Shown here piece by piece: positions 406-13,684 of a stretch of 13,684 nt of DNA. The stretch is from Trichoplax adhaerens (taxonomy: Eukaryota; Animalia; Placozoa). The stretch is from assembly GCF_000150275.1 (NCBI RefSeq), contig NW_002061064.1:1-13684 (forward strand), given 5' to 3'. The translations under genes were made by a program, and so were the position numbers. The stretch's first letter is position 1. Each line of letters opens with the position of its first letter. The notes below the pieces were generated by a model, which was given only the letters and a program-made list of their open reading frames with translations, was not told the DNA's origin and did not search any database.

Positions 406-693
406 TCATTCAATCATGACTAGAAATGCAACATAGCGAGATTGCAGAGATAGTACATCAACGATCTCATCCTTTACGTTCGTACCTTCTTTCAATAACA
501 AATTTTCGCACAGTTTGAGCTTTTGCTCTCTTGGCTTTGAGTTTCTTGGTAGTACTAACACCATTAGCTGCTTTATGAAGGGCTGAATTTTTGCCTTTTT
601 CCCCTCGTAGTGCCATCTTGGTAGTCTAGCCTTAACCAATTTATACGCACGAGCAGCTCTTGTGCTCTCATTTGCTTTGCTAATAGGAATCAA
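406..693 (-). pseudogene. Possible retroelement-derived coding relic
   Basis: 95-codon ORF. LVKARLPRWHYEG ... REQKLKLCENLLLKEG.NVKDEIVDVLS loosely recalls the pre-RT region of CRE-like non-LTR elements, by eye only. Confidence 0.18.
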
Positions 694-702
694 TATCGTC
701 TT

Positions 703-869
703 TACTGTACTGTACCGTACAGTACAGTACCTTACAGTACGTAAAAGGATTCATGTAATGGATTTGCAGCAATACTGTGCGTCAGGCTGTCCGTACGTAC
801 AGTACCGTACATGGACAATTGGACATGGTACACTAAGTACTGTACTGTACACTGTACAGTACAGTGTAC
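703..869. repeat. GTAC/(TACTG)-rich simple-repeat cluster with perfect palindromes
   Basis: tactgtactgtac-c-gtacagtacagta at 703-729 (13-bp arms) and gtacactgtac-a-gtacagtgtac at 847-869 (11-bp arms). Confidence 0.85.
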
Positions 870-1073: not shown

Positions 1074-1147
1074 CTAGTACAAACTCCCGTCGCTTTGCTG
1101 AAGGTTTACGATAATGTACCCATTTGTTAATATTTAACAGATAGTAT
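1074..1147 (-). mobile_element. Dispersed repeat copy 1, with a Helitron-like 3' terminus on the minus strand
   Basis: 1077-1147 matches 1464-1534 (71 nt, 2 mismatches). The minus strand reads ccttcagcaaagcgacgg-gagtttgta-CTAG|T, i.e. a GC hairpin about 9 nt before CTAG followed by T. Confidence 0.5.
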
Positions 1148-2399: not shown

Positions 2400-2420
2400 C
2401 TAACCCTAACCCTAACCCTA
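2400..2420 (-). repeat. Short interstitial telomere-like tract, (TTAGGG)x3.5 on the minus strand
   Basis: ctaaccctaaccctaacccta, preceded by degenerate cccttagct. Confidence 0.75.
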
Positions 2421-3287: not shown

Positions 3288-3846
3288 TCTGTACGATACC
3301 TGAATGGATCAAAATTTTATGATATAATTATAGATAGTAATACGGATAGAAATTGAAAGTAAAGCATAAAATATTGAAAGTATAATAAAGTATTTTGACC
3401 GAAACATGGTGATGCAAAGGATCTCACGCTTATTCTCACGTCAATAATCTCAGAGTCTAAATTTCCAGTTAGTGGATACGTGGTAGCAGTTTGATTGCCG
3501 CTTAAAGCTACTTGCACTCTATGATAAAGTCCACAATTTATTTATCCTTTTCGATTGCACCTCACTTTGTTTTTTAATAGTTATGTTGTTTATTATTTTT
3601 TATAAGTACTAGCAAATTACCCATTCAAATCAAGGGAGTACGCTCGTATTCTGTATAAGACAAGACATTAAAGTACGCTGGCTCCAAATGCGTTAACGAA
3701 ATTTGAACTTATCCTTGCAAAAGAGTAACGTAATAACTTGTAACCTGCAATATCTTGTAGGATTCAGTCTTCACTATGAACTGAGCCCAGCCGAATTACA
3801 GTATTCAAGTCAATTAATCCTTGAATCTCTTTAATGGTGATGCTAG

Positions 3847-4071
3847 CGACTACTAAAAGAAAGAAGCGAGACCCCTCTTTTCTTTCTTTTAGTACAATGT
3901 CTCCAAATACAATCGTCAATGAAATTTGAGTTTATTCACGTAAAAATAGTAACGCCAATCGACCACAATATGGTAGTTGACTTCGATAAGAACGCTATAT
4001 CTGCTAAAATAGTACAATGAACGCCATCGACTACTAAAAGAAAGGAGAGGGGTCAATCTCCTCTCTCCTTT
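3847..4071. repeat. Inverted/direct repeat cluster, MITE-like
   Basis: Perfect 15-bp stem between 3851-3865 and 3880-3894. cgactactaaaagaaag occurs at both 3847 and 4028. 3870-3894 (gacccctcttttctttcttttagta) is a near reverse complement of 4032-4054 (tactaaaagaaaggagaggggtc). A 9-bp stem joins 4041-4049 and 4063-4071. Confidence 0.65.
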
Positions 4072-4246
4072 AACTGTCGCTTTATCCATTTGCTTTCGTA
4101 GGAGCGCCGCATAGTAGTCTAGTAGACTTGCAAACTGTTGCAGTTATCATGTAATGACCCTTTGTATTATCGCAACTTTGAATCTATTTAGTTGAATAAT
4201 CTAAATTAGATATTTAAGCGCTGTCTAGATTATTATTATATACTGA

Positions 4247-7677: not shown

Positions 7678-8038
7678 NNNNNNNNNNNNNNNNNNNNNNN
7701 NNNNNNNNNNNNNNNNNNNNNNNNNNNNNNNNNNNNNNNNNNNNNNNNNNNNNNNNNNNNNNNNNNNNNNNNNNNNNNNNNNNNNNNNNNNNNNNNNNNN
7801 NNNNNNNNNNNNNNNNNNNNNNNNNNNNNNNNNNNNNNNNNNNNNNNNNNNNNNNNNNNNNNNNNNNNNNNNNNNNNNNNNNNNNNNNNNNNNNNNNNNN
7901 NNNNNNNNNNNNNNNNNNNNNNNNNNNNNNNNNNNNNNNNNNNNNNNNNNNNNNNNNNNNNNNNNNNNNNNNNNNNNNNNNNNNNNNNNNNNNNNNNNNN
8001 NNNNNNNNNNNNNNNNNNNNNNNNNNNNNNNNNNNNNN
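7678..8038. other. Assembly gap (361 N)
   Basis: Run of N characters. Confidence 1.
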
Positions 8039-9721
8039 GTATAGTATCTTTAAGGTTTACCTTGCCAAATCATGATGTCGCTATCTTTTCTTCTTCACTA
8101 TTTTACATGATTTTGTATAGATTACTATAGGAATGACTTAAGAGCAATTGCCTATTCTAAAGTAAGGGCGTTTGATAGTCTATTGAGATTGTAAATGAGT
8201 TTGAATACATCAACTGTTAGTACTAACGTCAGAAAACTAGTCATAGTTGTCATATAAAATGTTTCGATAAGCAAATATGTGATTTTATTAAAGTTCGGAT
8301 ATTTTGGATTTAGTTTCCGTCGACCGAGAGGGCTCTGCGAGGCCGTGACTATAAATGATAGTGCAATAAGAAAATTTAAAGTAGAGAGTAAAAGAAGATG
8401 TTTTTGAAGAACTTGTTGAATTTTAAAGACCTTCGGGGTCGAACTGTTGTAAGTGAAAACGTTCTTCTTTTGTTAGGTTGTTCAGTTGTCGACAGCTTTG
8501 ATTCTGTCGTTTTTTCATTATTTCTTCACTAACAATACTAGGATTAAGTATCTGAAAGGTTGTTTGATCTATCTCTCTCGCATTTATTAATAATTTGTTG
8601 TTCGGTTGTTTCTCCAATTTTTATTTGGTATCATAGTTTCGTTAAGTCGACCAGAGGCCAAGAAAGTAGAATCAAAGTTTGTTAAAAGTTTTGTAGCTTG
8701 ATTTCTACGTTTTATATTTCACAACAAATCCATTTGCATGCAATATTCCTATCTTATCTCTATATTATCGCGATATTAGTCTTTCCATATTATTGTGACA
8801 CAGACCAGTTCTATAACAAAATAACGAGAAGGCTGAATGAACAAATCTTATCCCTGAGCCACGTATCAGGGCACTAAATCTCTTTAAGTAACTCTTAAGA
8901 ACACTTATCCCTAATTTTACGAATTGATAATAATTCGTCCCTCTCCTTCATCCTCGATTTCACGTTATATAGAAGACAGCTATCTCGGATGGTAAAGTAG
9001 AACAACTTCATTAATGAATAATGATGAATGATTATATTGTAGTTATAGCATGTATTATGCCCAAAACTGAAAAATGAGCAATATGCCGCCAAATCGACTA
9101 TCGACGCAAAAATAAATCAACATATGCAGGATTATAATAAAATGATGTTGATTATACTTAGTAGAATTATAAGGCAATGATCGCAAATAATTGAAGATAC
9201 CCAATATTCTTTGCGTAGAATTTCTGTAATTGATGAACTGCATAACAAAAGTGTTTAACATTAGTTTATCAAGCCATTAAGCCAATTTGCGAAGTTATTA
9301 ATATGATAGCAAACCTCTTTTATGCTTAACACTGTATTTTACTTATTCATTACTATTGTTGTGTTAATGAGTAAGCTTCTATTTATAATAATAGCGATGA
9401 CGCAGATTATTGATATTGAAAATAAATAAAGAGAAGTAAGGTATGGAAAGAATGTCTTCGCGTTTTCAATCTATTACGGCTTCGTTAATATCAAAAAAAT
9501 GATTAACCAATAATTAGAATTGATGACCGTCGACTTCTTAGGGCGTATCCAATTTCGCCGATTTGAGCATGCTGTGAACTAGCATAGACTTTGAAATCTT
9601 GACATTAAATAGAAGGCATCAGTTTGGCTCAATCATATACTGTGAAGCGATTGCGATAATCAATCGTATTTCTATTAAAGTTGCGACCTCTATCGATTAG
9701 AGTACTGGTGTTTATTTCCCC

Positions 9722-9767
9722 CAAATTACTGTGTATGCTTTCAGTCTTGTTATTAACTGAAACATGG
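9722..9767 (+). promoter_or_regulatory. Possible 3' splice acceptor in the 5' UTR, plus Kozak start of the TPR gene
   Basis: tgctttcAG (AG at 9743-9744) lies 19 nt before aacATGG. The matching donor site cannot be identified. Confidence 0.4.
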
Positions 9768-12700
9768 CGGCATATGAGTCCACAAATTTGACTATCCTCG
9801 ATGAAACTGAATCTATCCACAAAAAAGGTATGAAATGCTTTGAAGAAGGCAATTATGAACAAGCTCTATTACATTACAAAGAAGCTGTTACTCAAATCCA
9901 ATCTATGTCCAAGAATAGTAATAATAATCATCACCATCAACTTGAATACGATATTTATCTCGACGTAGCCGATTGCTATTTAAGTCAATATAAACTGATA
10001 GAAGCCGATAAATGGATAAGAAATGCGAAGAAATTAGCCAAGCAACTACAAGATGGAGTGAGAATTGCAAAGTGCTTTGATAGGCAAGGGTGCATTAAAC
10101 AATTACGTGGTGATTTGAATGGAGCTTTAAAAGATTTTAACAAATCACTTAGAATAAAATCAGAATTGTCAGAAAGTGAAGATATCAATATTAGTGAGTC
10201 TTATCTTAACATTGCAAGTATTTATGATAATCAAGGCAAGTATAATGACGCTCTATCGATGTATAACAAATCACTGAGAATTCAACTAACACAACTTGGT
10301 GACAATCATCCAAGTATTGCTACGACATATCACAACATTGGTAGTGTCTATAATCATCAAGGCAAGTATGACGACGCTTTATCAATGTTTAACAAATCAC
10401 TGAAGATTGAACTAACACAACTTGCTGACAATCATCCGAGTATTGCTACGACATATCACAACATCGGTGGTGTGCATAAAGATCAAGGCAAGTATAACGA
10501 CGCTTTATCAATGTTTAACAAATCTCTGAAAATTCAACTAACACAACTTGGTGACAATCATCCAAGTATGGCTGCGACATATCACAACATTGGTAGTATC
10601 TATAATCATCAAGGCAAGTATGACGACGCTCTATCGACGTATTACAAATCACTGAAGATTAAACTAACACAACTTGGTGACAATCATCCAAGTATTGCTA
10701 CGACATATCACAACATTGGTAGTGTCTATAAAGATCAAGGCAAGTATGACGATGCTCTATCGATGTATAACAAATCACTGAAGATTATACTAACTCAGCT
10801 TGGCGACAATCATCCAAGTATTGCTGTAAGTTATAGCAATATTGGGCTAGTCTATAATGATCAAGGTAAGTATGACGACGCTCTATCGATGTATAACAAA
10901 TCACTGAAGATTAAACTAACACAACTTGGTGACAATCATCCAAGTATTGCTGCGACATATCACAACATTGGTAGTGTCTATAATCACCAAGGCAAGTATG
11001 GCGACGCTCTATCGATGTATAACAAATCTCTGAAGATTCAACTAACACAACTTGGTAACAATCATCCAAGTATTGCTGTGACATATCACAACATTGGTAG
11101 TGTCTGTAGTCATCAAGGCAAATATGACGACGCTTTATCGATGTATAACAAATCACTGAAGATTCTACAAACACAACTTGGTGACAATCATCCAAGTATT
11201 GCTGTCAGTTATGGCAATATTGGGCAAGTCTATAATGATCAAGGTAAGTATGACGACGCTCTATCGACGTATAACAAATCACTGAAGATTCTACAAACAC
11301 AACTTGGTGACAATCATCCAAGTATTGCTACGACATATCACAACATTGGTAGTGTCTATAAAGATCAAGGCAAGTATGATCACGCTCTATCAATGTATAA
11401 CAAATCACTGAAGATTAACCAAACACAACTTGGTGACAATCATCCAAGTATTGCTACGACATATCACAACATTGGTAGTGTCTATAAAGATCAAGGCAAG
11501 TATGACGACGCTCTATCAATGCAAAACAAATCACTGAAGATTCAACTAACACAACTTGGTGACAATCATCCAAGTATTGCTGTGATATATCACAACATTG
11601 GTAGTGTCTATGAAGATCAAGGCAAGTATGACAACGCTTTATCAATGTATAACAAATCACTGCAGATTCAATTATCACAACTTGGTGACAATCATCCAAG
11701 TATTGCTACGACGTATCACAACTTTGGTAGTGTCTATGAAGATCAAGGCAAGTATGACGACGCTTTGTCAATGTTTAACAAATCTCTTAAGATTAAACAA
11801 ACTCAACTTGGTAACAATCATCCAAGTATTGCTGCGAAATATCACAACATTAGTGGTGTCAATAATCATCAAGGCAACTATGATGATGCTCTATCGATGT
11901 ATAACAAATCTCTGAAGATTAACCAAACACAACTTGGTGACAATCATCCAAGTATTGCTACGACATATCACAACATTGGTAGTGTCACAAAAGATCAAGA
12001 CAAGAATGATGACGCTGTATCGATGTATAAAAAATCATTGAAGATTGACCTAACACAACTTGGTGACAATCATCCAAGTATTGCTGCGACATATCACAAC
12101 ATTGCTGGTGTCTATAATGATCAAGGCAAGCATGACAACGCTTTAGCGATGTATAACAAATCACTGAAGATTAAACTAACAAAACTTGGTGACAACCATC
12201 TAAGTATTGCTACGACATATCACAGCATTGGTAGTGTCTATAGTCATCAAGGCAAGTATGATGACGCTTTGTCGATGCATAACAAATCACTGAAGATTCA
12301 ACTAACACAACTTGGTGACAATCATCCAAGTATTGCTGTAACTTATAGCTATATTGGGCAAGTCTATAATGATCACGGTAAGTATGACGACGCTCTATCG
12401 ATGTATAACAAATCACTGAAGATTCAACTAACACAACTTGGCGACAATCATCCAAGTATCGCTATGACATATCACAATATTGGTAGTGTCTATAATTATC
12501 AAGGCAAGTATGACGACGCTCTATCAATGTATAACAAATCACTGAAGATTAAACTAACACAACTTGGTGACAATCATCCAAGTATTGCTACGACATATCA
12601 CAACATTGGTAGTGTCTATAAAGATCGAAGCAAGTATGACGACGCTCTATCGATGTATTATAAATCTCTGAAGATTAAACGATCACAACTTGGTGACAAT

Positions 12701-13684
12701 CATCCAAGTATTGCTATAACTTATAGCAATATTGGGCAAGTCTATCATCATCAAGGCAAATATGACGACGCTCTATCGATGTATAACAAATCTTTGAAGA
12801 TTCAACTAACACAACTTGGTGACAATCATCCAAGTATTGCTGCGACATATCACAACATTGGTGATACCTATTATCATCAAGGCAAGTATGACGACGCTTT
12901 ATCGATGTTTAACAAATCACTTAAGATTAACCAAACACAACTTGGTGACAATCATCCAAGTATTGCTTCGACATATCACAACATTGGTAGTGTCTATGAA
13001 GATCAAGGCAAGTATGACGCCGCTCTTTCGATGTATTACAAATCACTGAAGATTAAACTAACACAACTTGGTGACAATCATCCAAATATTGCTACGACAT
13101 ATCACAACCTTGCTGGTGTCTATTATCATCAAGGCAAGTATGACGACGCTCTATTGATGTATAACAAATCTCTGAAGATTAACCTAACACAACTTGGTGA
13201 CAATCATCCTACTATTGCTACGACATATCACAACATTGGTGGTGTCTATAATCATCAAGGCAAGTATGACGACACTGTATCGATGTATAAAAAATCACTG
13301 AAGATTCTACTAACACAACTTGGCGACAATCATCTAAGTATTGCTGCGATATATCACAGCTTTGGTAGTGTCTATAATAATCAAGGCAAGTATGACGACG
13401 CTCTATCGGTGTATTACAAATCTCTGAAGATTAAACTAACAAAACTTGGTGACAATCATCTAAGTATTGCTACGACATATCACAACATTGGTGGTGTGCA
13501 TAGTCATCAAGGCAAGTATGATGACGCTCTATTGATGTTTAACAAATCTCTGAAGATTGAACTAACACAACTTGGTAACAATCATCCAAGTATTGCTGTA
13601 ACTTATAGCAGTATTGCTGGCGTCTATAACTATCAAGGCAAGTATGACGACGCTTTATCGATGTTTTACAAATCACTGAAGATG
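9764..13684 (+). CDS. Large all-TPR solenoid protein with 42-aa TPR repeats (kinesin light chain / nephrocystin-3-like type), 3'-truncated by the window end
   Basis: ATG at 9764 lies in a good Kozak context (aacATGG) with an in-frame TGA just upstream (9758-9760). The frame is open for 3921 nt (1307 codons) to the end. It begins MAAYESTNLTILDETESIHKKGMKCFEEGNYEQALLHYKEAV...IYLDVADCYLSQYKLIEADKWIRNA...AKCFDRQGCIKQLRGDLNGALKDFNKSLRI. It then continues as repeats carrying the TPR signature Y4-I7-G8-Y11-G15-Y17-A20-Y24-S27-L28 and the KLC-type linker LGDNHPS. Frame was confirmed by locating the QGKY-position codon at 10232+126n for n=0..27. Confidence 0.95.
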   Translation, partial: MAAYESTNLTILDETESIHKKGMKCFEEGNYEQALLHYKEAVTQIQSMSKNSNNNHHHQLEYDIYLDVADCYLSQYKLIEADKWIRNAKKLAKQLQDGVRIAKCFDRQGCIKQLRGDLNGALKDFNKSLRIKSELSESEDINISESYLNIASIYDNQGKYNDALSMYNKSLRIQLTQLGDNHPSIATTYHNIGSVYNHQGKYDDALSMFNKSLKIELTQLADNHPSIATTYHNIGGVHKDQGKYNDALSMFNKSLKIQLTQLGDNHPSMAATYHNIGSIYNHQGKYDDALSTYYKSLKIKLTQLGDNHPSIATTYHNIGSVYKDQGKYDDALSMYNKSLKIILTQLGDNHPSIAVSYSNIGLVYNDQGKYDDALSMYNKSLKIKLTQLGDNHPSIAATYHNIGSVYNHQGKYGDALSMYNKSLKIQLTQLGNNHPSIAVTYHNIGSVCSHQGKYDDALSMYNKSLKILQTQLGDNHPSIAVSYGNIGQVYNDQGKYDDALSTYNKSLKILQTQLGDNHPSIATTYHNIGSVYKDQGKYDHALSMYNKSLKINQTQLGDNHPSIATTYHNIGSVYKDQGKYDDALSMQNKSLKIQLTQLGDNHPSIAVIYHNIGSVYEDQGKYDNALSMYNKSLQIQLSQLGDNHPSIATTYHNFGSVYEDQGKYDDALSMFNKSLKIKQTQLGNNHPSIAAKYHNISGVNNHQGNYDDALSMYNKSLKINQTQLGDNHPSIATTYHNIGSVTKDQDKNDDAVSMYKKSLKIDLTQLGDNHPSIAATYHNIAGVYNDQGKHDNALAMYNKSLKIKLTKLGDNHLSIATTYHSIGSVYSHQGKYDDALSMHNKSLKIQLTQLGDNHPSIAVTYSYIGQVYNDHGKYDDALSMYNKSLKIQLTQLGDNHPSIAMTYHNIGSVYNYQGKYDDALSMYNKSLKIKLTQLGDNHPSIATTYHNIGSVYKDRSKYDDALSMYYKSLKIKRSQLGDNHPSIAITYSNIGQVYHHQGKYDDALSMYNKSLKIQLTQLGDNHPSIAATYHNIGDTYYHQGKYDDALSMFNKSLKINQTQLGDNHPSIASTYHNIGSVYEDQGKYDAALSMYYKSLKIKLTQLGDNHPNIATTYHNLAGVYYHQGKYDDALLMYNKSLKINLTQLGDNHPTIATTYHNIGGVYNHQGKYDDTVSMYKKSLKILLTQLGDNHLSIAAIYHSFGSVYNNQGKYDDALSVYYKSLKIKLTKLGDNHLSIATTYHNIGGVHSHQGKYDDALLMFNKSLKIELTQLGNNHPSIAVTYSSIAGVYNYQGKYDDALSMFYKSLKM
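10190..13684 (+). repeat. Coding tandem array of 28 units of exactly 126 bp (first unit partly diverged, last truncated)
   Basis: The anchor caaggcaagtat (or a close variant) occurs at 10232, 10358, 10484 ... 13508, 13634, with a constant 126-nt spacing and no indels. Confidence 0.98.

What the first reader, a model, noticed from the sequence alone, without database searches (positions are those of the whole stretch)
10190..13684. Candidate variable-specificity receptor: invariant 42-aa TPR scaffold with code-like hypervariable residues on the binding face
Seen in sequence: the framework (QGKYDDALSM.NKSLKI.LTQLGDNHPSIA) is nearly constant across 28 units, mostly even at synonymous sites, while a few positions change repeatedly and non-synonymously. 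In canonical TPR numbering these are position 2 (T/A/V/M/I/S), 5 (H/S/G), 9 (S/G/Q/L/D), 12-13, 24 (Y/F/Q/H) and 31 (Q/K/N/L/E/I/D). The 12-13 dyads read in order DN NH KD NH KD ND NH SH ND KD KD ED ED NH KD ND SH ND NY KD HH YH ED YH NH NN SH NY, a small reused vocabulary (KD x6, NH x5, ND x4, ED x3, SH x3, NY x2, YH x2). All six KD units have T at position 2. Established knowledge: helix-A positions 2/5/9/12/13 line the concave ligand groove of TPRs. High internal identity with hypervariable groove residues typifies the sensor domains of fungal NLRs (HET-E/HNWD WD40 and TPR/ANK arrays), and a per-repeat residue code underlies TALE and PPR recognition. Inference: this gene may belong to an animal (likely placozoan) cytosolic non-self recognition system whose specificity is rewritten by repeat shuffling, possibly reading an extended peptide or polymer one repeat at a time.
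Basis: partly seen in the sequence, partly recalled or inferred. Interest (0 to 1): 0.8.

Follow-up and report, generated by a model that had tools for sequence, protein, structure and literature searches.

The report
Diversifying TPR sensor of placozoan Roco
A gene, likely from the simple animal Trichoplax, carries at least 28 near-identical 42-residue repeats that vary mostly at five positions predicted to line a peptide-binding groove; it is likely the fast-evolving sensor of a GTP-switch cell-death receptor, a pattern known from fungal immune receptors, and no TALE-like code is supported.

Summary
The cap's four closest relatives are Trichoplax TPR-Roc-COR(-Death) Roco proteins (8 of 20 cap-bearing genes have Roc-COR; none has NACHT/NB-ARC). 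Variation peaks at positions 2, 9, 12, 13 and 31, which align with cargo-contact residues of kinesin light chain 1. The same five positions lead in 11 unrelated 42-aa arrays. A tree-free test with recombination supports diversifying selection there (piN 2.1x piS; 2 of 2748 neutral simulations reach it). The codon-model test is weaker: 4 of 60 null runs reach it. The 'code' is not supported: dyads are linked adjacent codons, 25 of 27 units have distinct groove signatures, and PPR's Lys13 is absent. No two units are identical and linkage decays within a unit, so change comes from short conversion tracts rather than visible whole-repeat duplication. Verdict: likely a diversifying peptide sensor of an already-noted Roco family, evolving like fungal NLR repeats. 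The ligand and the C-terminus are unknown.

The parts
9764..10192 (+). ATG and 143-aa N-terminal helical cap, shared with Trichoplax TPR-Roc-COR proteins
   Evidence: Its Met aligns within one residue of the Met of P0001, P0082 and P0086; 48, 44 and 47% identity over 143 columns. The four best genes for the first 100 aa all carry Roc-COR.
10193..10318 (+). Unit 1, divergent first 42-aa TPR
   Evidence: longest branch in the unit tree
10319..13594 (+). Units 2-27: homogeneous 42-aa (42PR, kinesin-light-chain-like) TPR array, hypervariable at positions 2, 9, 12, 13, 31
   Evidence: Pfam TPR_12 and TPR_10; predicted superhelix for the modelled units
13595..13684 (+). Unit 28, cut by the window end; the rest of the array and any Roc-COR-Death part lie outside the window
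9532..9763 (+). Possible 5' untranslated region (weak hint)
   Evidence: Contigs of two RNA-type runs from two studies begin at 9532 and 9534 and run through the ATG, while DNA runs continue upstream. They differ by 18 and 36 letters (close paralogs or alleles), one run is only guessed to be RNA, and the loose-end table was cut.

Best explanation
This is likely the N-terminal ligand-sensing domain of a placozoan TPR-Roc-COR(-Death) Roco protein: a long 42-aa TPR array whose five predicted groove positions show diversifying selection while sequence exchange keeps the scaffold uniform. Shown here: cap, array, variable positions, excess amino-acid diversity, recombination inside units. Predicted: a superhelix in which His5/Asn6 of each unit hold the backbone of an extended polypeptide while positions 2, 9, 12, 13 and 31 of two or three neighbouring units jointly form side-chain pockets, as in kinesin light chain 1. 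This is a combinatorial surface, not one repeat per ligand unit. Inferred: Roc-COR and Death/CARD-like domains follow the array; binding of a foreign (or damaged-self) protein would switch the Roc-COR unit and expose the death domain to adaptors and caspases. Inferred: short gene-conversion tracts from a large pool of similar units rewrite the groove.
For: The 4 best genes for the cap all have Roc-COR, as do 8 of 20 cap-bearing genes; Death domains in P0001, P0082, P0086, P0286, P0319. The cap tree leaves the window outside the 96%-supported clade of more distant caps, beside four Roc-COR genes and one short model. Structural alignment to KLC1 has offset 69 (7aie_D Z 24.3, rmsd 3.4, 205 aligned; 6fuz_A Z 22.8, rmsd 2.6, 239 aligned). 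It puts the published cargo contacts K340; N259/N301/N343; N302/N344/N386; V305/L347; R266; K309/N351; R327 (PMC6214655 passages) on positions 2; 5; 6; 9; 12; 13; 31. The top structural matches are LGN TPR complexes (4wnd_A Z 32.9, rmsd 2.4, 317 aligned). piN at the five sites is 2.10x piS with 28 amino-acid states; 2 and 0 of 2748 neutral recombining simulations reach these values; ten polar helix-B/loop positions give 0.39x. M2a vs M1a LRT 24.1, sites 2 and 31. In four public runs 13 of 15 non-synonymous variants listed for related units fall on positions 2, 5, 6, 9, 12, 13 (mapped by hand). No stop among about 103 derived alleles where 4.6 are expected without selection. Linkage r2 falls from 0.27 (<=6 nt) to 0.03 (>60 nt), p 0.0005.
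Against: The C-terminus is not in the window and no genome is held, so Roc-COR is inferred; 12 of 20 cap-bearing genes lack it, though some may be fragments. Annotated TPR-Roco paralogs have only 5-14 units at 37-45% internal identity, unlike this array. The codon-model signal is reached by 4 of 60 null runs with recombination and does not flag 9, 12 or 13. Between two ortholog pairs of the diverged paralogs only 2 of 9 TPR differences fall on the five sites, both at 31. No ligand, induction or death activity is shown; expression evidence is weak. Kamm et al. judged TPR/WD40 placozoan NLRs unlikely to recognise pathogens (PMC6321704 passage).
Confidence: 0.55

Rival explanations
1. Same diversifying sensor, but a stand-alone TPR protein (or TPR-Death) without Roc-COR, acting as a helper, decoy or donor copy for the Roco receptors.
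For: 12 of 20 cap-bearing genes have no Roc-COR; P0185 is TPR-Death only and P0346 is a 1011-aa TPR-only protein. The terminal-unit-like loose end seen in RNA runs resembles the last unit of both Roco and short paralogs.
Against: The four closest caps all belong to Roc-COR genes; several short models lie next to Roco genes by accession and may be split models.
Confidence: 0.22
2. Self/non-self matching between placozoan individuals, or guarding of a polymorphic host protein (HET-like allorecognition), rather than direct detection of microbial proteins.
For: The best-studied arrays with this evolutionary regime are fungal NLRs, some of which act in allorecognition (PMC4986451 passages; listing abstracts).
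Against: No partner locus was found or tested; a long surface that differs at nearly every unit suggests many ligands rather than one partner (inference).
Confidence: 0.1
3. No adaptive sensor: a coding minisatellite spread by unequal exchange, in which groove positions vary only because they are unconstrained.
For: The same five positions vary in 11 of 11 unrelated arrays taken together, as any tolerant site would; the codon-model test is not robust to recombination; the unit looks very abundant in the runs.
Against: piN exceeds piS 2.1-fold, outside neutral simulations; synonymous diversity in these codons is not raised; polar outer positions stay conserved (0.39x); no stops or indels in 3.9 kb.
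Confidence: 0.09
4. A TALE/PPR-like code in which each repeat's 12-13 dyad reads one unit of a nucleic acid or other polymer.
For: Only 9 dyads among 27 units where 12.4 are expected if 12 and 13 were independent (p 0.0014). A weak Pfam PPR match with no stretch significant on its own.
Against: KD is always the same codon pair, and the 12-13 association fits linkage of adjacent codons; 25 distinct six-site signatures in 27 units. The position matching PPR Lys13, essential for RNA binding (PMC4837458 passage), is Asp or His. The groove has 14 K/R against 20 D/E. In KLC1 one ligand residue is read by two adjacent repeats.
Confidence: 0.04

Closest known systems
Trichoplax TPR-Roc-COR(-Death) Roco proteins, e.g. 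TRIADDRAFT_61714 / RDD37154, RDD40155, RDD39303 (family noted by Civiero et al. 2014, PMC4104024, passages read)
   Same: Same N-terminal cap starting at the same Met; 42-aa TPR units up to 71-76% identical to this array's consensus.
   Different: Those have 5-14 diverged units (37-45% internal identity); this has 28 or more at 78%. Roc-COR is not visible here.
Fungal NLR TPR arrays with high internal conservation, e.g. Podospora Pa_2_10340 (Dyrka et al. 2014, PMC4986451, passages read)
   Same: KLC-like TPR units, high internal identity, selected and polymorphic sites on the concave face.
   Different: There the repeats are C-terminal to NB-ARC/NACHT; here they are N-terminal and no STAND domain is present. 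Repeat-number polymorphism was shown there and not here.
[quoted passage not shown] 2012, PMC3341825; PMC11378527; passages read)
   Same: Roco GTPases with an N-terminal repeat domain under diversifying selection on the concave face, proposed as immune receptors.
   Different: LRR rather than TPR on the Roco, one exon per repeat with exon shuffling and splicing; here one uninterrupted frame with exchange inside units.
Kinesin light chain 42PR domain (PMC5642895, PMC6214655, PMC3314626, passages read; class named by Marold et al. 2015, not held, seen only as cited)
   Same: 42-residue period, gap-free alignment, same groove positions, Asn at position 6.
   Different: Six conserved, non-homogenised repeats binding fixed cargo motifs; about 30% identity.
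TALE and PPR proteins
   Same: Near-identical helical repeats with a few variable residues; TALE's variable pair is also numbered 12-13 (recalled), a coincidence of numbering.
   Different: Different repeat length; five or more variable sites here; PPR's Lys13 and last-position code residue are not matched.

Membership tests
42PR (kinesin-light-chain-like TPR) | 42-residue repeat period | tested here: met
   All 26 spacings between 27 anchors are 42
42PR (kinesin-light-chain-like TPR) | Helix-pair superhelix in register with KLC | tested here: met
   Gap-free phmmer alignments to KLC1/2; model vs 7aie_D Z 24.3, rmsd 3.4, 205 aligned. The model covers the cap and 8 units only.
High-internal-conservation repeat sensors (Dyrka 2014) | Over 85% internal identity across 100 aa or more | tested here: inconclusive
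   78% mean pairwise; 86% to consensus (153 departures in 1092); depends on the definition
High-internal-conservation repeat sensors (Dyrka 2014) | Positive selection at concave-face sites | tested here: met
   Tree-free test; codon models give only partial support; the face is assigned through KLC1
High-internal-conservation repeat sensors (Dyrka 2014) | Repeat-number polymorphism between alleles | not testable with these tools
   Only short-read contigs were available; none spans the array
NLR / STAND (NACHT or NB-ARC) | Nucleotide-binding domain N-terminal to the repeats | tested here: not met
   The Met aligns with paralog starts; 0 of 20 cap-bearing genes show NACHT/NB-ARC in Pfam (P0197 from the precomputed list)
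Roco proteins | Roc GTPase plus COR in the same chain | not testable with these tools
   The window ends in unit 28 and no genome is held; inferred from the 4 closest caps and 8 of 20 overall
Trichoplax TPR-Roco subfamily | Shared N-terminal cap | tested here: met
   E 4e-27 to P0001/P0215 for the first 100 aa within the 360 proteins held
PPR | 35-aa repeat, code residues at 5 and 35, Lys13 on the phosphate (PMC4837458) | tested here: not met
   42-aa period; position 13 is D or H in 24 of 26 units; the last position is nearly invariant Ile. The register comes from the Pfam PPR match plus a recalled Pfam consensus.
TALE | 33-35-aa repeat with variation confined to one di-residue (recalled) | tested here: not met
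   42-aa TPR; positions 31 and 2 vary as much as 12; 25 signatures in 27 units

The most novel reading that the evidence does not exclude
Placozoans keep a genome-wide library of near-identical 126-bp TPR units that act as conversion donors and rewrite the binding groove of Roco death-domain receptors in short patches, fast enough that clonal animals, or cells of one animal, differ: a VLR/VSG-like anticipatory repertoire built on TPR plus a LRRK2-type GTP switch in one of the simplest animals.
Probability: 0.1. Interest if true: 0.85.

Novelty: new variant of a known kind. Interest (0 to 1): 0.45.

Why it matters
Placozoans lack LRR-type NLRs, RIG-I and cGAS-STING (PMC6321704 passage), so what senses intracellular invaders is open. 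This locus joins two known things, the Trichoplax TPR-Roco family and the fungal pattern of homogenised repeats with a selected groove, and names a testable candidate sensor with five defined specificity positions. It also suggests that positions 2, 9, 12, 13 and 31 are the general specificity set of homogenised 42-aa TPR arrays across a fungus, a rotifer, Hydra and unnamed metagenomic proteins, which is useful for binder design. It is not a new code, and the ligand is unknown.

Tried and rejected
Whole-genome retrieval: none held, so the 3' end could not be read. No database protein matches this gene closely: best 55-57% over 353 aa. The searches covered 718-2286, 619-2000 and 194-618 aa, so a full-length product above about 2300 aa could not appear. 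Codon site models alone were rejected as proof: the LRT of 18-24 is reached by 4 of 60 recombining null data sets, and those simulated trees were less star-like (terminal fraction 0.45-0.57) than the real one (0.81). Block duplication inside the array: none found; mean differences at unit spacing 1-9 are 16-18 and the longest exact shared stretch is 93 nt, under one unit. This also argues against a collapsed-repeat artefact, though long reads are needed to exclude mis-assembly. 'All KD have T2': the 2-12 association has p 0.017 uncorrected among 28 pairs tested, in line with linkage. Position 24 as a groove site: not supported. Summed contig depth on the unit (up to 112,000 against 15-21 on single flank contigs in run X1) is not a copy number by the tool's own warning; I use it only as a sign of many copies. 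Both RNA-type runs also cover upstream non-coding DNA, so expression is not shown. Position 31 lay near the edge of the stretch and was not assessed there. Marold et al. 2015 is not held. Literature searches returned no paper on homogenised or selected TPR arrays in placozoan Roco genes; subscription papers and supplements (e.g. Dataset S3D of PMC6321704, Fig. 7 positions of PMC4986451) were not seen and may bear on novelty. No complex was predicted, as there is no candidate ligand. Four small upstream frames gave no Pfam family above cut-off (a fifth).
Full report
Observation. The window holds one long open frame, 9761-13684 on the + strand, with no stop before the end. From ATG 9764 it encodes 143 residues and then 28 units of exactly 42 residues starting at 10193, the last cut at residue 30; TRF gives period 126, 27.6 copies, no indels. 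Units 2-27 are 86.8% identical in DNA and 77.9% in protein. Positions 2, 9, 12, 13 and 31 hold 71 of 153 departures from consensus; identity is 30% there and 84% elsewhere. Synonymous sites do vary (piS 0.197). About 103 derived alleles include no stop, where 4.6 are expected without selection.

What gene it is. Searching with residues 1-200 gave three Trichoplax proteins among the top four hits, all with Roc and COR domains. Further searches added more. With the first 100 residues as query against the 360 proteins held, 24 hits collapse to 20 genes after merging four near-identical pairs; 8 carry Roc-COR, including the four best. Death domains occur in P0001, P0082, P0086, P0286, P0319 and in the Roc-less P0185. 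None of the 20 shows NACHT or NB-ARC (P0197 from the list). The window's Met aligns within one residue of the Met of P0001, P0082 and P0086, so no nucleotide-binding domain lies upstream. The organism is inferred from these relatives; several of the 20 are unnamed. At least 17 Trichoplax Roco genes, some with TPR, CARD and death domains, are already noted (PMC4104024, passages; repeated in PMC11378527, passages). No genome is held, so Roc-COR after this array is an inference; I put it near two in three. Annotated Roco paralogs differ in having 5-14 diverged units of 37-45% internal identity. In the two RNA-type runs a contig leaves a near-identical unit into a stretch that reads, by hand, 7 of 10 identical to the terminal unit of P0001. 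So some array of this type ends as the family's arrays do, but short paralogs end that way too.

Where the variable residues sit. The units align without gaps to kinesin light chains, the 42PR class (PMC5642895, passages). A single-sequence model of the cap plus 8 units has pLDDT mostly 82-96 over the repeats and below 50 over most of the cap. It matches LGN TPR complexes best (4wnd_A Z 32.9, rmsd 2.4, 317 aligned) and KLC1 with a constant offset of 69 (7aie_D Z 24.3, rmsd 3.4, 205 aligned). With that offset, the KLC1 residues reported to contact JIP1 and TorsinA peptides (PMC6214655, passages) fall on unit positions 2 (K340), 5 (N259, N301, N343), 6 (N302, N344, N386), 9 (V305, L347), 10 (L348), 12 (R266), 13 (K309, N351), 17 (Y313) and 31 (R327). 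All five hypervariable positions are therefore predicted groove contacts, flanking a conserved Asn6 (23 of 26 units); in KLC1, Asn pairs at 5/6 hydrogen-bond the peptide main chain. Position 24 is not on that list. In KLC1 a single ligand tyrosine sits in a pocket built by two adjacent repeats, which argues for combinatorial pockets. I could not inspect the model's coordinates; the face assignment rests on this alignment.

Selection. My GY94 implementation gives M2a vs M1a LRT 24.1 and M8 vs M8a 22.6, with sites 2 and 31 at posterior 1.0 and 32 at 0.9. With FastTree trees the LRT is 18.0, and 4 of 60 data sets simulated with recombination and no omega above 1 reach it, so this test is only suggestive. 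A tree-free test is stronger: at 2/9/12/13/31 piN is 2.10 times piS, with 28 amino-acid states in total. Of 3838 simulations with omega 1 at those sites, 2748 had matching piS; 2 reached the ratio and none the number of states. Ten polar helix-B and loop positions give 0.39. Caveats: the set was taken from other arrays but equals the window's own top five, the null assumes neutral synonymous sites and even mutation rates, and units may be drawn from many loci. Independently, in four public runs 23 variants at 5% or more were listed over a 151-base stretch; by hand 15 are non-synonymous, 13 of them at positions 2, 5, 6, 9, 12 and 13, and the best-covered framework parts show only synonymous ones. 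Against: in two ortholog pairs of diverged paralogs only 2 of 9 TPR differences fall on the five sites.

Not unique. Of 218 proteins then held, 58 had homogeneous arrays of 8 or more units, 11 after removing similar consensuses (named ones: the fungus Orbilia, the rotifer Rotaria, Hydra). Their mean entropy ranks 12, 31, 9, 13, 2 highest, the same five as here; these were in the top six in 10, 6, 9, 8 and 7 of 11 arrays. These arrays were fetched with this gene as query. Dyrka et al. report positive selection and polymorphism on the concave face of Podospora TPR repeats modelled on KLC2, with repeat-number polymorphism (PMC4986451, passages). [quoted passage not shown]

No code. Nine dyads occur among 27 units against 12.4 expected under independence (p 0.0014), but KD is always one codon pair, and linkage between all polymorphic sites decays with distance: r2 0.27, 0.17, 0.09, 0.05 and 0.03 from <=6 to >60 nt (p 0.0005), with four-gamete violations rising from 38% to 66%. 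The vocabulary is what adjacent codons inherited together produce. Over six groove sites there are 25 signatures in 27 units. PPR binding needs Lys13 and code residues at 5 and 35 (PMC4837458, passages); here 13 is Asp or His, the last position is nearly fixed, and the groove has 14 basic against 20 acidic residues.

How it changes. Neighbouring units are no more alike than distant ones, and the longest exact shared stretch is 93 nt. The array looks like a patchwork of sub-repeat tracts, best explained (inference) by short gene conversion among many units. Summed contig depth on the unit is thousands of times that of single flank contigs, and the cap has several close copies, but the tool warns this is no copy number. 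Expression is a weak hint only: contigs of two RNA-type runs start at 9532-9534 and cross the ATG, one run has an exact piece over 10056-10274, yet both also cover upstream non-coding DNA.

Mechanism and verdict. Most likely (0.55) this is the diversifying peptide-binding sensor of a TPR-Roc-COR-Death receptor, whose ligand would switch Roc-COR and recruit death-fold adaptors; those last steps are untested. Rivals: a stand-alone sensor or donor copy (0.22), allorecognition or guarding (0.10), neutral coding minisatellite (0.09), per-repeat code (0.04). Two earlier AI notes from other windows reach similar readings; they are unchecked and not independent support. My searches found no paper on homogenised, selected TPR arrays in placozoan Roco genes, within a library that lacks most subscription papers. 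It is a new variant of a known kind; interest 0.45.

Noticed in passing
P0001 vs P0215, residues 1554-1675: These near-identical Trichoplax Roco orthologs differ at 16 positions in the first 1550 residues but at 40 in the C-terminal death-domain region, which looks like a swapped cassette.
   Followed up: no
P0238 (385 aa): Carries the cap, nearly as in P0004, joined to a short C-terminal region with the TPR array and Roc-COR missing; a deleted derivative or a faulty gene model.
   Followed up: partly
P0074 and P0080: Unnamed long proteins with a lipase-like motif and a P-loop (read by eye) before a homogeneous 42-aa array that varies at 9, 12, 13 and 31; a fungal-NLR-like layout.
   Followed up: partly
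window 406-750, - strand: A 114-aa open stretch that reads like a real exon; only a weak Pfam PEP5/VPS11 N-terminal match (E 0.009, below cut-off).
   Followed up: partly
window 8340-8750: Dispersed repeat upstream of the gene: summed depth up to thousands in DNA runs against tens on the flanks.
   Followed up: no
window 3845-3894 and 4032-4081: A 50-nt inverted pair, each arm itself a hairpin, 137 nt apart; possible small non-autonomous element.
   Followed up: no
window 1077-1147 and 1464-1534: A 71-nt direct repeat at 97% identity, 387 nt apart.
   Followed up: no
window 2401-2419: Three tandem telomere-type hexamers inside the sequence (read by eye).
   Followed up: no
window 7678-8038: A 361-base run of N, an assembly gap 1.7 kb upstream of the gene.
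   Followed up: no
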